A DNA stretch of 64,000 nucleotides from Candidatus Micrarchaeia archaeon (GTDB lineage Archaea > Micrarchaeota > Micrarchaeia > Anstonellales > Anstonellaceae), in contig JBAZYD010000008.1 of the NCBI GenBank assembly GCA_041659465.1, forward strand, positions 7,484 through 71,483. The letters run 5' to 3'. Positions 5,496 through 61,081 of this stretch are shown piece by piece. Position numbers and translations under genes: made by a program. The first letter of the stretch is position 1, and each line of letters starts with the position of its first letter. The notes beneath the pieces were generated by a model, which did not search any database, had not been told where the DNA came from, and saw nothing but the letters and a program-made list of their open reading frames with translations.

Positions 5496-5609
5496 TGGGC
5501 CCGCGAGGAATCGAACCCCGAATCTTCGCTGTGTAAGAGCGACGTCTTAACCATTGTCGGCTTGCCGGCAAGTTCTTGCCTGCAGGCAAGAGCATTCGAC
5601 TACGGGCCC
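5496..5609 (-). tRNA. tRNA-Val(UAC) with a 41-nt intron in the D-arm
   Basis: Manual fold gives acceptor GGGCCCG/CGGGCCC+A, anticodon arm TCGCT-CTTACAC-AGCGA, variable loop AGATT and T arm CGGGG-TTCGATT-CCTCG. The D arm GTCG-AATGGTTA-AGAC only forms after removing 41 nt (about 5556-5596). The mature tRNA is 73 nt. Confidence 0.8.
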
Positions 5610-35827: not shown

Positions 35828-35956
35828 GCGCTGCCCGCCAATTTCCTAAAGCATGTTTGCCTCTTTTTGCGGAATGGATGGGGAATATTTTCCGCCAAGG
35901 CAAAAAAGTGTGCAATTGCCAAGCTTTTTAATTACCTCATCTCTAATACGCCTTGT

Positions 35957-36031
35957 AGCGGGATAGGGTAGTTTGGAGTGCCCGCTGGGCTCATAACCCA
36001 GAGATCAGTGGTTCAAATCCACTTCCCGCTA
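35957..36031 (+). tRNA. initiator tRNA-Met (CAU)
   Basis: 75 nt with A1:U72 (AGCGGGA/TCCCGCT+A) and anticodon arm CTGGG-CTCATAA-CCCAG carrying three G:C pairs, both archaeal initiator hallmarks. T arm AGTGG-TTCAAAT-CCACT. Confidence 0.9.
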
Positions 36032-36338
36032 TTCTCCTTTTCGCTTTTTTTTGCGTTGGTTTTTCCTTTTTCATTTCCCAAAAAGCCAGGCCCCCACCCG
36101 CCCTGGGACCCCCATACTTCCTATAATAATAAAAGATATATTTGATTGTATATATATGTAACTATGGTTACAATAAACAACTATAAACATCACAAACAAC
36201 AAAAATCATCGAATACAAACGCAAAACACCCACCCTTTATTACCGGAACTCCAGGGGTGGGTGGCTAGAGGCAAAACGGGCAAAAAGGCGCGTGCTGGGG
36301 AATGAAAAACAAAAAGAGGGCCTGGAAAACAAGAACAG

Positions 36339-37752: not shown

Positions 37753-37849
37753 GGGCCCATAGCTCAGCTTGGTAGAGCAGTGGACTCTTATGCTCGCATG
37801 CGCGCGCAGAGCCATCCACGTGTCGTGGGTTCGAATCCCACTGGGCCCG
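37753..37849 (+). tRNA. tRNA-Lys(CUU) with 23-nt canonical (37/38) intron
   Basis: Acceptor GGGCCCA/TGGGCCC+G, D arm GCTC-AGCTTGGTA-GAGC, anticodon stem GTGGA/TCCAC and loop CTCTTA|intron 37791-37813|A. T arm GTGGG-TTCGAAT-CCCAC. The mature tRNA is 74 nt. Confidence 0.85.
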
Positions 37850-45455: not shown

Positions 45456-45510
45456 CGCTGCCCCTTTGGCTGGCGAGAGCGTTTTAAACCCCTTCATCCC
45501 GACTATTGGC

Positions 45511-46707
45511 ATGGCATCTTCCGGGGGCAAACCGACGCTTTCCTCCCTCATTGGCAACCCGACCGCCATAGCGGCGGCAAGGGCATGGGCGCAGGGCTGG
45601 CAGGACGGGAAGCGGCAGCCACCCCTTCTCATCACAGGCTCCACAGGCACAGGCAAGACCGCGCTTGCTCACGCGATTGCAGGCGAATTCGGCTGGGAGC
45701 TTTTCGAGTTCAACGCATCCGACTTCAGGAACGAGGAAAACGTCACCGCGCTGCTCTCGCACTCCACGACGTCCTCCTCCCTTTTCGGCGGCACGCGCCT
45801 CATCCTGATTGACGATGCTGACTCCCTTTCCGGCACTGCCGACAGGGGCGGGGCAGGCGCAATCGCAAAAGTATTGGCAGGCGCACGCCAGCCAGTCATC
45901 CTGACCGCAGCCGACTACTATGACAGGAAGATGTCCTCGATAAAGGCGCACTGCCAGCAACTTGAGCTCCGCCGCTCGCATGTCTCCACAATCGCGAAAT
46001 TCCTGGGGCGGGAGGCGGCCTCGCGCGGCATTGCGCTTGCAGAAGGCGACGCGGAAAAAATCGCGCAGGCGGCCGCGGGGGACATCCGCGCCGCGCTCAA
46101 CGACCTTGCCGCGCACAACACGTCCGCAAGCCGCGACCGGGAGAAGAACATATTCGACATCATGCGCGACATCTTCAAGGCGGAAAAATACTCCGACGCG
46201 CGCAAGGCGGCGTTCTCATCCGAAGCGGACCACGACACGCTCAAGCTCTGGATTGCGCAAAACCTCCCGACGGCATGTGCCAAGCCGTTTGACCTGGCCG
46301 AAGGCTACAACAGGCTCTCGCGCGCAGACATGTTCGACGGCAGGATAAAGCGCACGCAATACTGGGGCTACCTGCGCTACTCTTCCGACCTGATGACTGC
46401 AGGGGTGTCACTTTCAAAATCATCGCCATCGCAGCAGCACGGCTTTGTGCCATTTGCATACCCGGACTACATCCGCGCCATGGGCTCGTCGAAATCCGCG
46501 CGCACGCTGCGGAAGGGCGCGCTGTCCAAAATCGCGCGCATGTGCCACTGCTCCATTGCGCAGGCTGGGGGCTACCTGCCGCTGTTTGAGCTGGTGGCAA
46601 AAAAGGACGGGGCGGCATTCGGCGAGCTGTTTGACGAGGACGAGCTAGCATTTATAATGAAGAAGGATGCGAAGAAGGCAGCAGCAAGGAAAAAGGCAAA
46701 GGAGTAG
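45511..46707 (+). CDS. rfcL: replication factor C large subunit
   Basis: LLITGSTGTGKTALAHAIA, LILIDDADSL and GDIRAALNDL. ATG at 45511 with TATA ttttaaac (45482-45489) about 22 nt upstream. The track start at 45466 is TTG. Confidence 0.75.
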   Translation: MASSGGKPTLSSLIGNPTAIAAARAWAQGWQDGKRQPPLLITGSTGTGKTALAHAIAGEFGWELFEFNASDFRNEENVTALLSHSTTSSSLFGGTRLILIDDADSLSGTADRGGAGAIAKVLAGARQPVILTAADYYDRKMSSIKAHCQQLELRRSHVSTIAKFLGREAASRGIALAEGDAEKIAQAAAGDIRAALNDLAAHNTSASRDREKNIFDIMRDIFKAEKYSDARKAAFSSEADHDTLKLWIAQNLPTACAKPFDLAEGYNRLSRADMFDGRIKRTQYWGYLRYSSDLMTAGVSLSKSSPSQQHGFVPFAYPDYIRAMGSSKSARTLRKGALSKIARMCHCSIAQAGGYLPLFELVAKKDGAAFGELFDEDELAFIMKKDAKKAAARKKAKE

Positions 46708-46827: not shown

Positions 46828-47325
46828 ATGCTCGAACCAACCGCAAAAGACGCAAAGCTTTTCACTGAGGCCGACGTGGCACTTGCGCAGAAATTCCGCG
46901 AAGCGGGCTTTGGCCTCTACAAGGAAGGCGAACTGCTCCTCTCGCCCCTTGAAGCAGGCTACCTGGTGAAAATCGGCAAGGCAAAGCTCGCGTCAGGCAC
47001 GCTCGCCTCTTTCACAGGCGCGCAGAAGAAGCGCGACAAGGCATTCCCATTCGCGCTTTCAGTGTACTTCATCATCCGCCAGACCGGCAGGATGGTCGCG
47101 CCGTTCGAAAAGACAACGCAATATTTCCGCGCATACGCGCCCGGCGTGGGGCGCACCGAGAACCGCCCCTCCCAGCTGATATGCCTCTTGCCAGGCGTTG
47201 CCCCATCGACAAAACAGCTGGTCGAGCAGGTGAAAATCGCGCACCTCGCGCGGCTCGAGCTCATAATCGCATGCGGAACGGAAGAGGAGCCGCACTTCTA
47301 CAAATTGTCGGCGTTCAATTTCTGA
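46828..47325 (+). CDS. short tRNA-splicing-endonuclease-like protein (EndA paralog, possibly non-catalytic)
   Basis: 165 aa. LLLSPLEAGYLVKIG resembles the EndA N-domain, VYFIIRQTGRMV...YFRAY the C-domain, and LIIACGTEEEPHFYKL the C-terminal strand. No clear His/Lys catalytic pair was seen. Confidence 0.5.
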   Translation: MLEPTAKDAKLFTEADVALAQKFREAGFGLYKEGELLLSPLEAGYLVKIGKAKLASGTLASFTGAQKKRDKAFPFALSVYFIIRQTGRMVAPFEKTTQYFRAYAPGVGRTENRPSQLICLLPGVAPSTKQLVEQVKIAHLARLELIIACGTEEEPHFYKLSAFNF

Positions 47326-58095: not shown

Positions 58096-58695
58096 CTAGC
58101 CCAAAAATTCCTTCACGAACGCAGCGCATGCCTTCTCATTCATGCCATCAAGCATGATGGAGCGCACTCCCGCGCCCTCCCCCGCCTGCATGTCCTCCAG
58201 ATTGTCGCCGACAAAAACAGCCTTGTCCGCGCGCACACCGAGCCTAGCAAGCGCAAGCCTTATCATCGTCGGGTCAGGCTTGACAGGCGCGTCACCGCTT
58301 GTCATCACAGCCTCGAAATATTTCTCGATGCCGATTTGCCGAAGCACCGCGATTGCGCTTGATTTCCTGTTGCTTGCTGCGGCAAGCCGGTAGCGCGCGG
58401 CAAGCGCAGGCACTTGCGCGGCAAGCATGGACGGTTTTACAAGCGCCATATTTTCGTTCGTAAGCTCCCGCAGCCTGTCAAGCATTGCCGCAAGCTTCGC
58501 CCTGTCCGCGGAAAGCGATGGCGCCAGCGCAATGAGCACGGATTCCGCCGAATGTGCGGAGGACATCGAGTCGATGCGCGCATCAGGCACGTCAAAGCCG
58601 AATTCCCTCATGAGGCATTTCGTATTGTGAGAAATCGCCTCGCGCGAATCCGCAAGCACGCCGTCGATGTCGAAAATAATCGCCTTTATTGCCAT
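58096..58695 (-). CDS. HAD-superfamily phosphatase
   Basis: MAIKAIIFDIDGVLADS (motif I) and VFVGDNLEDMQAG (motif IV). Confidence 0.75.
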   Translation of the reverse strand: MAIKAIIFDIDGVLADSREAISHNTKCLMREFGFDVPDARIDSMSSAHSAESVLIALAPSLSADRAKLAAMLDRLRELTNENMALVKPSMLAAQVPALAARYRLAAASNRKSSAIAVLRQIGIEKYFEAVMTSGDAPVKPDPTMIRLALARLGVRADKAVFVGDNLEDMQAGEGAGVRSIMLDGMNEKACAAFVKEFLG

Positions 58696-59774
58696 AAAAT
58701 CTTCCGGTTTTTCTCGGTTTCCCCGTCCCTGCACAGCAACGCCACGCGCGATGGTGAATGAATGTCCACCAATTTATATCCCGTCATCTTGGCAAGCTTT
58801 CCTGCAATGGCCTCGATTTCCTCCATCTTCAGCATGGACCCAAGCGCCAATCCCCGCGCAGGCTCGCGCGCGCCGCCCACAAACACCATGCTCTTCACTT
58901 CGACATAATGCGGCTTGGCAAGCTTAATCTGCGCGGCATAGCCCTCCAAGTCGCAGTCATTCACCCCGCGCGCAATTGTCATCCTAAGCACGGTCCTCGT
59001 TTTCTTCCCAATTTCCGGCATCATATCTAGCGTGCGCAGGTATTTTTTCCATAAGCCTGGCGTGGATGGGCGTATGAAGCGCCGGTAAACATCCTCGTTC
59101 GGCGCAACCATGGAGACATAGAACTGCGTTGGCAGCACTTTCCATTTTGCAACAGCTTCCGGCAATGTCCCGTTCGTGACGACAAACGTGGTCATGCCGC
59201 GCGCATGGAAATCAGCAAGCAGCCCGTCCATCTTAGGGTACATCGTGGGCTCCCCGGTAAGCGACAGGGCAACATGTTTTGGGGAAAGGGCTTCAACGTA
59301 TAGGGATTTTTTCACTTCCGGATTGCCTCCAAAGCCAGCCACCAGCGTTTTCTGAGCTTTCACCAGCCCGTCGGCAATGTCTTCCGGCTCCCCCCACGAA
59401 AAGCCTTTCACATCGCCGTATTTGTCCTCAGATTGGAGCTGCGGCTCCAATACAGACAAATTTCTCCGAAATTTGTCTCTTTCCGGCATCATCCTCCAGC
59501 AGAAGACGCACGCGTGGTTGCAGAACTGCAAAACTGGCGTGCACTGCAGGCAGCGGTGCGAGGAAATCCCATAGAACTTTGATTTGTAGCATTCGCCGCG
59601 CCCTTTGAGCGACTCGCCAGCCCAATGGCAAAGCTTCGCGGCTGAGTGCTCGCCCACCACGGCATACTTCTGGTTCACAAGCTTCGCGAGCATCCTGTCC
59701 GGCAGGCTGGCGTTCCTGCGCCTAAGCGCGTCATAGTGCTTCCCCTTTCCCAGCTTCCTCCTCTGCCTTGCCAT
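58686..59774 (-). CDS. taw1: tRNA 4-demethylwyosine synthase (Taw1/Tyw1, radical SAM)
   Basis: CNHACVFCWR radical-SAM CxxxCxxC plus upstream Cys residues. TATA gttttaaacc (59797-59806) lies upstream of the ATG at 59774. Confidence 0.85.
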   Translation of the reverse strand: MARQRRKLGKGKHYDALRRRNASLPDRMLAKLVNQKYAVVGEHSAAKLCHWAGESLKGRGECYKSKFYGISSHRCLQCTPVLQFCNHACVFCWRMMPERDKFRRNLSVLEPQLQSEDKYGDVKGFSWGEPEDIADGLVKAQKTLVAGFGGNPEVKKSLYVEALSPKHVALSLTGEPTMYPKMDGLLADFHARGMTTFVVTNGTLPEAVAKWKVLPTQFYVSMVAPNEDVYRRFIRPSTPGLWKKYLRTLDMMPEIGKKTRTVLRMTIARGVNDCDLEGYAAQIKLAKPHYVEVKSMVFVGGAREPARGLALGSMLKMEEIEAIAGKLAKMTGYKLVDIHSPSRVALLCRDGETEKNRKILWQ

Positions 59775-59875
59775 GTTCCCATTCCCCCTCACTCACGTTT
59801 TAAACCTTGTGGGGCAATACACGAACAGCAGTCTTCCGGGGATATTTTTTTCAATGCCCCCAAGAGCGTGAAAAA

Positions 59876-61081
59876 ATGGCAATCAAACTCGATTTTTCCC
59901 CAAAGAAAAAATCCGCGTGCGTATCCGAGCCCGAGTCAGTCTCATCGCTTGTGAACGGGCACTACGGCTACATGAAAAAAGGCGTCATCCACCTTTTCCC
60001 CGAGGAGGCGCTGTATCTTATGGACATACGGAACGCGCGCGCGTTCGACTCGTCGCTGAACGAATACCGCTTCAACCACGTGGCCGCCGCCTTTGAGCGC
60101 AAAAAGCAGATGGCGCGCTACTTCACCTACAAGGACTGGCGCGACAGGGGGCTTATTGCGCGGCAGGTGAGCGAAATCTGCGAGCGCTACGGCAGGAACA
60201 ACAGCATCAAATACCCGTCGGGGAATCTCAGGCTTGACAAATACTCCCTAGTCGGCCGCTTCTACCCTGACGACCTGTGGTCCATAATCGACGACGAGGA
60301 AGTCGGCAAGCGCCTGTATGAGGAGCACTGGTTCGGCCAGTTCGGCTCCTACAAGGCCGAGCAGCGCGGCAGGCTTTCCAAGCTTGATGCATACGAGACG
60401 CTTTTCCTCATGCGCCATTCCGGCATGCGCCTGGAAAATGCGGATGAGAGCGGCGTGATTCGCGCCGCCAGGCGCCAGCACAAGGACTTTTTGCACCTGT
60501 ACGAAGTTTACGAGGACTGGCGCCTGCACGGTTTCGTTCTCAAGACAGGCTTCAAGTTCGGCACGCACTTCAGGCTTTACTTCCCGGGCGCCTCGCCGGC
60601 GCGCGAGGGCAAGGAATGGATTCACAGCAAGCACGTGGTGCACTGCTTCCCCCGCGCAAGCAAGCTGCTCATATCCGAGTGGGCGCGCGCAATCCGCGTT
60701 GCGCACTCTGTGAAAAAGACATTCCTTCTTGCGATACCTGGCGAGGCGAAAAAGAAAGCGAAGGCAACTGCAAAGAAGGCAAAGGCGGAATCGGCAGATC
60801 TCCACACCGCTCTTGATTTCCTCCTCTACCACCGCCAGCACGGCGGCATCGAGAACCCGAAAACCGGCAAGCCCAAATACCTGATGTTCTCGCTTTCCGA
60901 GGAGGAGCACATAGGCGGCGAGGAGCTTGCGGATGCAATCGCGCAGTGCAAGCGGATTGGGCTTGAGCTGCTGCTTGCTATCTGCGACCGCGAAACATCT
61001 GTCACATACTACCTGGTGAAAAGGCTCGAGGTGCCTGGGAGCACGCGCGAGTACTACGAAATAGAGTGGGTGCAGCCTTAA
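59876..61081 (+). CDS. endA: tRNA splicing endonuclease, long three-unit form
   Basis: 401 aa. The catalytic unit is YEDWRLHGFVLKTGFKFGTHFRLY...HSKHVVH...VKKTFLLAI. An N-terminal extra unit (LFPEEALYLMD...YFTYKDWRDRGLIA) and a C-terminal extra unit (GLELLLAICDRETSVTYYLV) flank it. Confidence 0.85.
   Translation: MAIKLDFSPKKKSACVSEPESVSSLVNGHYGYMKKGVIHLFPEEALYLMDIRNARAFDSSLNEYRFNHVAAAFERKKQMARYFTYKDWRDRGLIARQVSEICERYGRNNSIKYPSGNLRLDKYSLVGRFYPDDLWSIIDDEEVGKRLYEEHWFGQFGSYKAEQRGRLSKLDAYETLFLMRHSGMRLENADESGVIRAARRQHKDFLHLYEVYEDWRLHGFVLKTGFKFGTHFRLYFPGASPAREGKEWIHSKHVVHCFPRASKLLISEWARAIRVAHSVKKTFLLAIPGEAKKKAKATAKKAKAESADLHTALDFLLYHRQHGGIENPKTGKPKYLMFSLSEEEHIGGEELADAIAQCKRIGLELLLAICDRETSVTYYLVKRLEVPGSTREYYEIEWVQP

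What the first reader, a model, noticed from the sequence alone, without database searches (positions are those of the whole stretch)
59876..61081. Three-unit tRNA splicing endonuclease
At about 401 aa this EndA is more than twice the length of the homotetrameric archaeal enzyme. It reads as three concatenated endonuclease-like units. The central unit has the catalytic Y/H/K context (GTHFRLY, HSKHVVH). The flanking N- and C-terminal units keep only structural motifs. A three-unit EndA with broad substrate specificity has been described from ultrasmall ARMAN archaea. Its presence here agrees with the non-canonical tRNA-Val intron and hints at the lineage.
Basis: partly seen in the sequence, partly recalled or inferred. 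Interest (0 to 1): 0.6.

Follow-up and report, generated by a model that had tools for sequence, protein, structure and literature searches.

The report
Three-unit (ε-type) archaeal tRNA splicing endonuclease
This gene encodes the already-described "three-unit" tRNA-intron-cutting enzyme of ultrasmall Micrarchaeota archaea, with every known functional residue intact and two intron-containing tRNA genes in the same window; it is a clear but ordinary member of a known enzyme type.

Summary
ORF 59876..61081 (+) encodes a 401-aa protein carrying the quoted motifs. It aligns end to end (52.5% identity, E 1e-125) with ARMAN-2 EndA (PDB 4FZ2/9W2K), the founding ε2 "three-unit" tRNA splicing endonuclease. 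An AlphaFold model (pLDDT 85) superposes on that structure at TM 0.90, against 0.48 for two-unit α'2 enzymes. The published unit boundaries map cleanly onto it: αN, linker 1, catalytic α, Lys-rich linker 2, βC. The catalytic triad (Y235/H250/K281), the ASL Tyr-Lys (Y159/K160), the RNA-binding R274/W398 and the dimerisation pair K223/D371 are invariant in 44 homologues. By fold, the three "units" amount to two EndA units, because αN and βC together form one composite structural unit. The window holds a tRNA-Lys(CUU) with a strict canonical BHB intron and a tRNA-Val(UAC) with a 41-nt D-loop intron in a relaxed BHB. Nearest relatives (96%) are groundwater Micrarchaeota MAGs. Dimerisation and cleavage were not testable. 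Verdict: a new member of a known kind, of low interest. Two side observations are more interesting. A conserved single-unit EndA-like pseudo-enzyme (46828..47325) co-occurs with the ε enzyme. ε-type genes also occur in MAGs labelled Aenigmatarchaeota.

The parts
59876..61081 (+). epsilon-type EndA gene (401 aa plus stop)
   Evidence: ORF and translation; PDB 4fz2 E 1.4e-125 over the full length; Foldseek TM 0.90/0.94 to 9w2k_B
59842..59851 (+). TATA-like A/T run (ATATTTTTTT) about 30 nt upstream of the ATG; possible archaeal promoter for a short-leader transcript (inferred)
   Evidence: Sequence read; inference from general archaeal promoter geometry, not tested
59879..60163 (+). alphaN unit (aa 2-96): EndA N-terminal subdomain plus first helix and strand of a C-terminal domain; no catalytic residues
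   Evidence: Mapped from ARMAN-2 residues 2-97; Pfam tRNA_int_endo_N aa 13-50, E 5.3e-5 when scanned alone; aa 82-94 align with aa 209-221 of the alpha unit, E 3e-4
60164..60247 (+). linker 1 (aa 97-124)
   Evidence: Mapped from ARMAN-2 residues 98-125
60248..60736 (+). catalytic alpha unit (aa 125-287): complete EndA unit with Y235 (60578-60580), H250 (60623-60625), K281 (60716-60718), pocket K223, R274
   Evidence: Pfam N-terminal plus catalytic domain hits (E 5.6e-20) when scanned alone; residue mapping; invariant in 44/44 sequences
60344..60376 (+). ARMAN-specific loop (ASL, aa 157-167, GSYKAEQRGRL) with Y159 and K160, the broad-specificity determinant
   Evidence: Maps to ARMAN-2 158-168; Y and K invariant in 44/44; role shown for ARMAN-2 by mutagenesis and the RNA complex
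60737..60817 (+). linker 2 (aa 288-314), Lys/Ala-rich, 15 aa longer than in ARMAN-2, predicted disordered
   Evidence: pLDDT <50 at 295-303; family range 11-39 aa, always Lys-rich
60818..61078 (+). betaC unit (aa 315-401): beta-subunit-type C-terminal subdomain with L10-loop D371 (60986-60988) and RNA-binding W398; no triad
   Evidence: Family profile hits the beta subunits NEQ261 (2.8e-5) and PAE0789 (5e-4); Pfam tRNA_int_endo profile positions 27-85 only; catalytic-Lys position aligns with L363 (weak); D371 and W398 invariant
37753..37849 (+). tRNA-Lys(CUU) gene with a 23-nt intron (37791-37813 by the BHB rule) at canonical position 37/38 in a strict hBHBh' motif: predicted substrate
   Evidence: ARAGORN -i; Rfam 59.2 bits; the MFE fold shows a 4-bp helix flanked by two 3-nt bulges
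5496..5609 (-). tRNA-Val(UAC) gene with a 41-nt intron (5554-5594) after nt 15 in the D-loop; H helix GUCG/CGAC, each strand followed by AA|U; relaxed HBh'-type BHB: predicted substrate that needs a broad-specificity enzyme
   Evidence: Sequence; constrained fold -45.4 vs MFE -48.9 kcal/mol; the spliced product is called as a 73-nt tRNA-Val(tac) cloverleaf; Rfam sub-threshold 27.6 bits; ARAGORN -i mis-calls the locus as tRNA-Cys

Best explanation
The gene encodes an epsilon-type tRNA (RNA) splicing endonuclease, the orthologue of ARMAN-2 EndA in a groundwater Micrarchaeota archaeon. Shown here: one polypeptide carries, in order, an N-terminal EndA subdomain (alphaN), a complete catalytic EndA unit (alpha) and a beta-subunit-type C-terminal subdomain (betaC). 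Inferred from the ARMAN-2 structures and mutants: alphaN and betaC pack into one composite structural unit, and two protomers dimerise when the acidic L10 loop of betaC (D371) enters the basic pocket of the other protomer's alpha unit (K223). This places two active sites (Y235/H250/K281) at the spacing of the two bulges of a bulge-helix-bulge RNA. R274 and W398 hold the bulged base. Y159 and K160 in the lineage-specific ASL loop clamp the bulge backbone, so relaxed BHB motifs at non-canonical positions are cut as well as strict ones, leaving 2',3'-cyclic phosphate and 5'-OH ends for ligation. Predicted substrates in this window are pre-tRNA-Lys(CUU), with a strict BHB at 37/38, and pre-tRNA-Val(UAC), with a relaxed BHB in the D-loop.
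For: Full-length alignment to 4fz2 at E 1.4e-125 and 52.5% global identity with unit-by-unit mapping. Unit boundaries, the triad, R275/W384 and ASL K161 were defined experimentally for ARMAN-2. The roles of Y160/K161 come from the RNA complex and mutants. The K224E and D357A mutants lose dimerisation and activity. All eleven equivalent residues are invariant in 44 homologues and in 40 or more genome-derived copies. The model has pLDDT 85.4 and pTM 0.84, and Foldseek gives TM 0.90/0.94 to 9w2k_B and 0.89/0.92 to 4fz2_A, but only 0.48/0.62 to alpha'2 enzymes. Per-unit Pfam scans give N-domain / N-domain plus catalytic domain / C-domain only. The family profile links betaC to the beta subunits NEQ261 and PAE0789. 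Intron-bearing tRNA genes of both kinds are present. No second catalytic EndA is in the window.
Against: Nothing contradicts it. Dimerisation, RNA cleavage and substrate breadth are inferred from a 52%-identical characterised orthologue and were not measured. Direct unit-to-unit profile alignments within the protein are weak (E 3e-4 and 0.011). The tRNA-Val BHB model is 3.5 kcal/mol above the unconstrained MFE. A conserved non-catalytic EndA-like paralogue in the same genome leaves open that the in vivo assembly is not only epsilon2.
Confidence: 0.93

Rival explanations
1. In vivo the epsilon protein does not act only as a homodimer. It works with, or is regulated by, the conserved 165-aa single-unit EndA-like pseudo-enzyme encoded about 13 kb away (46828..47325), giving a heteromeric or alternative assembly.
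For: The paralogue has a confident full EndA fold (pLDDT 88.8, TM 0.80 to M. jannaschii EndA). It is conserved in 64 relatives. It lies in the same genomes as epsilon EndA, on contigs matched by length and scaffold number. It keeps the Tyr, an acidic L10-like loop and a C-terminal strand, but lacks the catalytic His and Lys.
Against: ARMAN-2 epsilon protein alone dimerises and cuts both strict and relaxed BHB substrates in vitro. In the epsilon2 dimer all four unit positions are already filled. There is no interaction evidence, and the two genes are not adjacent.
Confidence: 0.1
2. It is an ordinary two-unit alpha'2-type EndA (two tandem complete units) misread as three units.
For: The length (401 aa) is near that of two-unit enzymes (305-359 aa chains). 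By fold content it equals two EndA units.
Against: The domain order is N / N+C / C, not N+C / N+C. In the phmmer alignment to A. fulgidus EndA, the N- and C-halves of its first repeat (residues 14-78 and 96-144) align to query 24-93 and 340-392, on either side of the catalytic unit. TM is only 0.48/0.62 to alpha'2 structures against 0.90 to epsilon. The ASL insert is present, and the second RNA-recognition residue is Trp, as in the epsilon and (alpha-beta)2 types, not the second Arg of the alpha'2 and alpha4 types.
Confidence: 0.02
3. It is an inactive relic or a fusion with an unrelated domain.
For: The flanking units lack catalytic residues. Linker 2 is low-complexity and predicted disordered.
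Against: The ORF is intact. All catalytic, RNA-binding and dimerisation residues are invariant across a family spanning 60-96% identity. Every segment matches EndA families only. No other catalytic EndA is in the window, while intron-bearing tRNAs require one.
Confidence: 0.02

Closest known systems
ARMAN-2 (Candidatus Micrarchaeum acidiphilum) epsilon2 EndA, PDB 4FZ2 and 9W2K (Fujishima 2011, PMC3239211; Hirata 2012, PMC3488258; Miyata 2025, PMC12397907)
   Same: Same alphaN-linker-alpha-linker-betaC order over the full length. Same triad, R/W RNA-recognition pair, ASL Tyr-Lys, pocket Lys and L10 Asp. TM 0.89-0.90.
   Different: Only 52.5% identical. Linker 2 is 15 aa longer and Lys/Ala-rich. 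The ARMAN-2 loop residues K241/K244 are S240/R243 here; they were dispensable in ARMAN-2. The host is a neutral groundwater lineage rather than one from acid mine drainage.
epsilon2-type EndA of Candidatus Mancarchaeum acidiphilum Mia14 (noted in Kaneta 2018, PMC5829648)
   Same: Another Micrarchaeota orthologue recognised in the literature as epsilon2 with the L2 (ASL) loop.
   Different: Not compared directly here. It is known only from sequence.
(alpha-beta)2 EndA of Crenarchaeota and Nanoarchaeum (e.g. A. pernix 3P1Z, N. equitans 3IEY, P. aerophilum 2ZYZ)
   Same: Broad substrate specificity, the Arg + Trp recognition pair, and a Lys-bearing loop near the active site. The betaC unit is homologous to the C-terminal part of their beta subunits.
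   Different: The alpha and beta subunits are separate genes there. Their loop (CSL) is unrelated in sequence to the ASL. Here beta is reduced to its C-terminal subdomain and fused after alpha.
alpha'2 EndA of Archaeoglobus fulgidus (1R0V, 2GJW)
   Same: A homodimer of a polypeptide containing one catalytic and one structural unit. Same catalytic chemistry. The alpha unit aligns at E 1e-19.
   Different: Two contiguous complete units in the order structural then catalytic. No ASL and narrow specificity. TM only 0.48/0.62.

Membership tests
epsilon2-type (three-unit) archaeal EndA | Single polypeptide of about 390 aa with unit order alphaN - linker 1 - alpha - linker 2 - betaC | tested here: met
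   End-to-end alignment to 4fz2; boundaries mapped; per-segment Pfam gives N / N+C / C
epsilon2-type (three-unit) archaeal EndA | Protomer fold matches the ARMAN-2 crystal structure | tested here: met
   AF2 pLDDT 85.4; Foldseek TM 0.90/0.94 (9w2k_B) and 0.89/0.92 (4fz2_A)
epsilon2-type (three-unit) archaeal EndA | Catalytic triad Tyr/His/Lys in the central alpha unit only | tested here: met
   Y235/H250/K281 equal ARMAN-2 Y236/H251/K282 and are invariant in 44/44. The alphaN scan shows no catalytic domain. In betaC the Lys position aligns with Leu363 (weak alignment).
epsilon2-type (three-unit) archaeal EndA | ARMAN-specific loop (ASL) with Tyr-Lys next to the active site | tested here: met
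   GSYKAEQRG at aa 157-165; Y159/K160 equal Y160/K161; invariant
epsilon2-type (three-unit) archaeal EndA | Arg + Trp bulge-recognition pair (R275/W384 in ARMAN-2) | tested here: met
   R274 and W398, invariant
epsilon2-type (three-unit) archaeal EndA | L10-loop Asp in betaC and basic-pocket Lys in alpha, required for dimerisation (D357 and K224 in ARMAN-2) | tested here: met
   D371 and K223 are present and invariant. This tests the residues only, not the interaction.
epsilon2-type (three-unit) archaeal EndA | Forms a homodimer | not testable with these tools
   Needs SEC-MALS or cross-linking, or a multimer prediction; only single-chain prediction was available
epsilon2-type (three-unit) archaeal EndA | [quoted passage not shown] | not testable with these tools
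   Only the predicted substrates could be shown: a strict BHB in tRNA-Lys and a relaxed BHB in tRNA-Val
alpha'2-type EndA | Two contiguous complete EndA units (structural, then catalytic) in one chain | tested here: not met
   The structural unit is split around the catalytic unit; TM 0.48/0.62
alpha4-type EndA | Single catalytic unit of about 170-180 aa forming a homotetramer | tested here: not met
   401 aa with three segments. The only single-unit EndA-like gene in the window (46828..47325) lacks the catalytic His and Lys.
(alpha-beta)2-type EndA | Separate alpha (catalytic) and beta (structural) genes; Crenarchaea-specific loop | tested here: not met
   alpha and betaC are fused in one ORF. 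The loop is ASL-type, not CSL.

The most novel reading that the evidence does not exclude
Micrarchaeota may not rely on a simple epsilon2 homodimer. A conserved, previously undiscussed single-unit EndA-like pseudo-enzyme accompanies the epsilon gene across the group. It has the full EndA fold, keeps the Tyr and lacks the catalytic His; in the clade containing this window the catalytic Lys is also lost. It may be a functional partner, for example a regulatory or substrate-selecting subunit, or an independent BHB-RNA-binding protein. That would amount to a further EndA architecture. Separately, intact epsilon-type genes in MAGs labelled Aenigmatarchaeota would mean the epsilon type is older or more mobile than the literature states.
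Probability: 0.15. Interest if true: 0.6.

Novelty: new member of a known kind. Interest (0 to 1): 0.25.

Why it matters
The finding itself adds little. The ε2 enzyme has been known since 2011, its structure was solved in 2012 and its RNA complex in 2025, and near-identical proteins (96%) already sit in public Micrarchaeota MAGs annotated as "tRNA-intron lyase". Its practical value lies in annotation. It marks the window as Micrarchaeota-like, explains why tRNA genes here escape standard finders, and predicts that more disrupted tRNA genes exist in this genome. The family-wide invariance of ASL Tyr-Lys, the triad, R/W and the L10/pocket pair supports, by comparison, the mechanistic model built on the single ARMAN-2 enzyme. 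The two side observations could interest people who study EndA evolution, since papers up to 2025 list the ε type only for ARMAN-1/-2 and Mancarchaeum. They are the co-occurring pseudo-EndA paralogue and the ε-type genes in Aenigmatarchaeota-labelled MAGs.

Tried and rejected
- **Standard tRNA finders:** default ARAGORN and Rfam at gathering threshold miss the tRNA-Val. ARAGORN -i calls the locus "tRNA-Cys(gca) with a 28-nt intron". I rejected that call after reading the sequence and showing that the product spliced at 15/16 is a clean tRNA-Val(tac).
- **Unconstrained folding:** the MFE fold of pre-tRNA-Val gives a non-cloverleaf structure, so a constrained fold was needed.
- **More tRNA genes:** a T-arm motif scan found no further candidates, and its match count was at chance level.
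- **Unit-to-unit profile alignment:** hhalign between the three units gave only short, weak matches (E 3e-4, 0.011, 0.48). It cannot on its own prove that the units are related, so the per-unit Pfam and PDB profile hits carry that argument.
- **TTG start at 59807:** rejected, because all homologues begin at the ATG-equivalent Met.
- **Long Lys/Ala-rich linker 2 as a special insert:** rejected, because linker 2 is 11-39 aa and Lys-rich throughout the family.
- **Literature:** searches for an EndA paralogue in Micrarchaeota found nothing. The only EndA paper mentioning Aenigmarchaeota uses the word solely to spell out the DPANN acronym.
- **Promoter scan:** the sigma-70 promoter/terminator tool was not used, because it does not model archaeal promoters.
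- **Expression data:** no RNA-seq run holding this sequence was found; all listed runs were DNA metagenomes.
Full report

Yes. An ORF runs 59807..61081 on the + strand from a TTG. In a 44-sequence family alignment every member starts at the equivalent Met. An A/T-rich TATA-like run (59842-59851) lies about 30 nt upstream of that ATG and downstream of the TTG (the promoter reading is my inference). I therefore take 59876 as the start. The quoted motifs are present: GTHFRLY at aa 229-235 and HSKHVVH at aa 250-256.

**2. What is it?**

- **Family matches.** Pfam finds the EndA catalytic domain (aa 205-288, E 8.5e-29) and the EndA N-terminal domain. NCBIfam finds tRNA-intron lyase models, plus weak β-subunit models over aa 329-384.
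- **Best solved structure.** Against PDB sequences the best hit is 4fz2_A (the same sequence as 9w2k), E 1.4e-125, aligned over aa 2-401 against 2-387. Every other EndA matches only the central part, at E 1e-19 or weaker. 4FZ2 is the ε2 "three-unit" EndA of Candidatus Micrarchaeum acidiphilum ARMAN-2 (PMC3488258). 9W2K is its complex with BHB RNA (PMC12397907).
- **Unit map.** Global identity to ARMAN-2 EndA is 52.5%. The published boundaries map as follows:
  - αN: aa 2-96
  - linker 1: aa 97-124
  - α: aa 125-287
  - linker 2: aa 288-314
  - βC: aa 315-401
- **Fold.** An AlphaFold2 model built on the family alignment has pLDDT 85.4 and pTM 0.84. It is of low confidence only in the ASL loop, in one short loop and in linker 2. 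Foldseek places it on 9w2k_B at TM 0.90/0.94 and on 4fz2_A at 0.89/0.92. Two-unit α'2 enzymes reach only 0.48/0.62.

**3.

Each segment was scanned separately against Pfam:
- Segment 1 hits only the EndA N-terminal domain (E 5.3e-5).
- Segment 2 hits the N-terminal domain and the catalytic domain (E 5.6e-20), so it is a full unit.
- Segment 3 hits only the distal part of the C-terminal-domain model (profile positions 27-85, E 2e-5).

A profile of the family also links segment 3 to the structural β subunits NEQ261 (2.8e-5) and PAE0789 (5e-4). In the phmmer alignment to A. fulgidus α'2 EndA, the two halves of that enzyme's first (structural) repeat align to query 24-93 and 340-392. These lie on either side of the catalytic unit (individually weak).

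Within the protein, aa 82-94 (YFTYKDWRDRGLI) align with aa 209-221 of the α unit, the first helix of the C-terminal domain (E 3e-4). The βC helix-strand at aa 350-369 aligns with α aa 268-287 and puts Leu363 at the catalytic-Lys position (E 0.011, weak).

There is therefore no unrelated fusion partner, and there are three sequence units as the field defines them. By fold, however, αN and βC make up one composite structural unit. The protomer thus equals two EndA units, not three complete ones, exactly as described for the crystal structure.

**4. Functional residues**

The ARMAN-2 residues shown experimentally to matter all have identical counterparts here:

| Role | ARMAN-2 | This protein | Source of the ARMAN-2 evidence |
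|---|---|---|---|
| Catalytic triad | Y236 / H251 / K282 | Y235 / H250 / K281 | |
| Bulge recognition | R275 / W384 | R274 / W398 | |
| ASL loop | Y160 / K161 | Y159 / K160 | |
| Further contacts | K228, S252 | K227, S251 | |
| Dimerisation (pocket / L10 loop) | K224 / D357 | K223 / D371 | |

All of these are invariant in 44/44 aligned homologues spanning 60-96% identity. They are also conserved in nearly all copies recovered from GTDB species genomes. Linker 2 is hypervariable (11-39 aa) and always Lys-rich, so the long Lys/Ala stretch here is unremarkable.

**5. Substrates in the window**

- **tRNA-Lys(CUU), 37753-37849.** It has a 23-nt intron at 37/38. Its MFE fold is a textbook hBHBh' motif: the anticodon stem is extended by CUCU/AGAG and flanked by the 3-nt bulges UA|U and CC|A.
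- **tRNA-Val(UAC), 5496-5609, minus strand.** Standard finders miss or mis-call it. Reading the sequence shows GGGCCCG...CGGGCCC acceptor strands, a UAC anticodon arm and 41 extra nt after position 15. The D-stem strand GUCG pairs with CGAC at the intron's 3' end. Each strand is followed by AA|U, and an intron-internal helix stacks on the 5' side, but no outer exon helix closes the 3' bulge. I read this as a relaxed HBh'-type BHB. A fold constrained to this model costs -45.4 against an MFE of -48.9 kcal/mol. The spliced product is called as a 73-nt tRNA-Val(tac) cloverleaf.
- **tRNA-Met, 35956-36032.** It has no intron.

Two of the three tRNA genes are therefore disrupted, one of them non-canonically. 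That fits the enzyme-tRNA co-evolution described for ARMAN-2. Cleavage itself is inferred, not shown.

**6. Distribution and lineage**

The word-indexed search found 1320 relatives. The best 120 are 60-96% identical and nearly all full-length (about 385-446 aa, with a few shorter partial sequences). Every named one comes from Micrarchaeota, Micrarchaeia, Anstonellales or Gugararchaeum, or is labelled only "uncultured archaeon", and most are annotated "tRNA-intron lyase". In GTDB species genomes the closest copies (96%) are in three Micrarchaeota MAGs. The sequence is most complete in a groundwater metagenome run. The lineage hint is therefore right.

One caveat applies. Seven MAGs labelled Aenigmatarchaeota carry homologues at 39-46% identity: six are full-length ε-type genes of 385-410 aa, and the seventh (L044) is cut off by the end of its contig. 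The six full-length copies have the same key residues, apart from D371G in L043, and they form their own clade. The EndA literature I read lists the ε type only for ARMAN-1/-2 and Mancarchaeum Mia14.

**7. Surroundings**

Head-to-head with EndA, across an 83-bp spacer, lies a radical-SAM gene with a wyosine-formation domain (Taw1/TYW1-like; 58686..59792, minus strand). It is another tRNA-maturation gene. The pairing is conserved in about 19 of 45 related loci. Further upstream is a HAD hydrolase. Downstream are a TPR protein and a gene without family matches.

**8. An unexpected second EndA-like gene**

A weak tblastn hit of the ε protein against the window (E 0.28) led to ORF 46828..47325 (+), 165 aa.
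- **Single-sequence matches** are sub-threshold (Pfam E 0.006 and 0.05; PDB 5x89 at 6.7e-5).
- **Homologues.** It has 64 homologues (49-91% identity), all unnamed or from Micrarchaeota and mostly annotated "hypothetical".
- **Profile matches.** A profile of them matches A. fulgidus EndA at 7e-14 and M. jannaschii α4 EndA over its full length at 2.6e-8.
- **Fold.** Its model (pLDDT 88.8) superposes on 1a79_A at TM 0.80/0.78.
- **Catalytic residues.** In the profile-profile alignment with the ε family, Tyr103 aligns with Y235. The catalytic His aligns with an invariant Pro114, and the catalytic Lys with an invariant Leu143. It is therefore a conserved pseudo-enzyme.
- **Co-occurrence with ε EndA.** In one relative the paralogue lies on a 97,003-bp contig of the same length and scaffold number as the contig carrying ε EndA, about 14 kb away. 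The spacing in the window is about 13 kb, and the upstream AAA+ neighbour is the same. A more distant His-less version is annotated "tRNA-splicing endonuclease" in Candidatus Anstonella stagnisolia. It lies on a 920,852-bp contig matching in length the one that carries an ε EndA.
- **Family size.** The exhaustive search shows a narrow core family (6 clusters at E ≤ 1e-30) and a wider tier of similar His-less single-unit proteins.
- **Role.** Its function is unexplained. ARMAN-2 ε protein works alone in vitro, so I treat a partnership as a low-probability novel reading.

**9. Verdict**

This is a new, uncharacterised member of a known and structurally solved enzyme type, and a specialist would not be surprised by it. 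Homodimerisation and cleavage specificity remain inferred from a 52%-identical orthologue. Interest is 0.25, and the side observations account for most of that.

Noticed in passing
window 46828-47325 (+): A second EndA-like gene of 165 aa. It is a complete single EndA unit by profile (AFU EndA 7e-14) and by fold (TM 0.80 to 1a79_A), but the catalytic His and Lys are replaced by an invariant Pro114 and Leu143. It is conserved in 64 Micrarchaeota relatives, mostly annotated 'hypothetical', and occurs in the same genomes as the epsilon EndA. Its function is unknown.
   Followed up: yes
L039-L045 (e.g. L040 2881-4113, L042 2908-4101): Six full-length epsilon-type EndA genes (385-410 aa, 39-46% identity) in MAGs labelled Candidatus Aenigmatarchaeota, plus a seventh copy (L044) cut off by the end of its contig. 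All key residues are kept in the six full-length copies except D371G in L043. They form their own clade together with two 'uncultured archaeon' copies (L035, L038). The EndA papers I read list the epsilon type only for ARMAN-1/-2 and Mancarchaeum. MAG taxonomy and contamination were not checked.
   Followed up: partly
window 58686-59792 (-): The divergent neighbour, 83 bp from the EndA start, is a radical-SAM plus Wyosine_form protein (Taw1/TYW1-like tRNA-modification enzyme). The head-to-head Taw1-EndA pair is conserved in about 19 of 45 related loci.
   Followed up: partly
window 5496-5609 (-): The tRNA-Val(UAC) gene is invisible to default ARAGORN and to Rfam at gathering threshold (27.6 vs 29 bits), and ARAGORN -i mis-calls it as tRNA-Cys. 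Its 41-nt intron holds three copies of the CUUGCC/GGCAAG palindrome halves, which allow alternative hairpins.
   Followed up: yes
window 60737-60817 (+) and alignment A1: Linker 2 of the epsilon family varies widely in length (11-39 aa) but is always Lys-rich, and it is predicted disordered here. It may be a flexible basic tether or an RNA-contacting tail.
   Followed up: partly
window, around 36000: GC skew is positive from 1 to about 36 kb and negative from about 36 to 64 kb, with the cumulative maximum near 36 kb, close to the tRNA-Met and tRNA-Lys genes. This could be a switch in coding-strand bias or a replication landmark.
   Followed up: no
window 45466-46707 (+): An AAA+ ATPase gene (RFC-large-subunit-like by eye) ends about 120 nt upstream of the pseudo-EndA paralogue. 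In a relative (L046) the two genes are only 7 nt apart, which suggests co-transcription.
   Followed up: partly
L012 (JAOAJL010000001.1): The epsilon EndA copy in this MAG reads as only 365 aa and lacks the part of betaC that carries the L10 Asp and the Trp. This may be a frameshift, an assembly error or a truncated gene (compare P0057, 350 aa).
   Followed up: no
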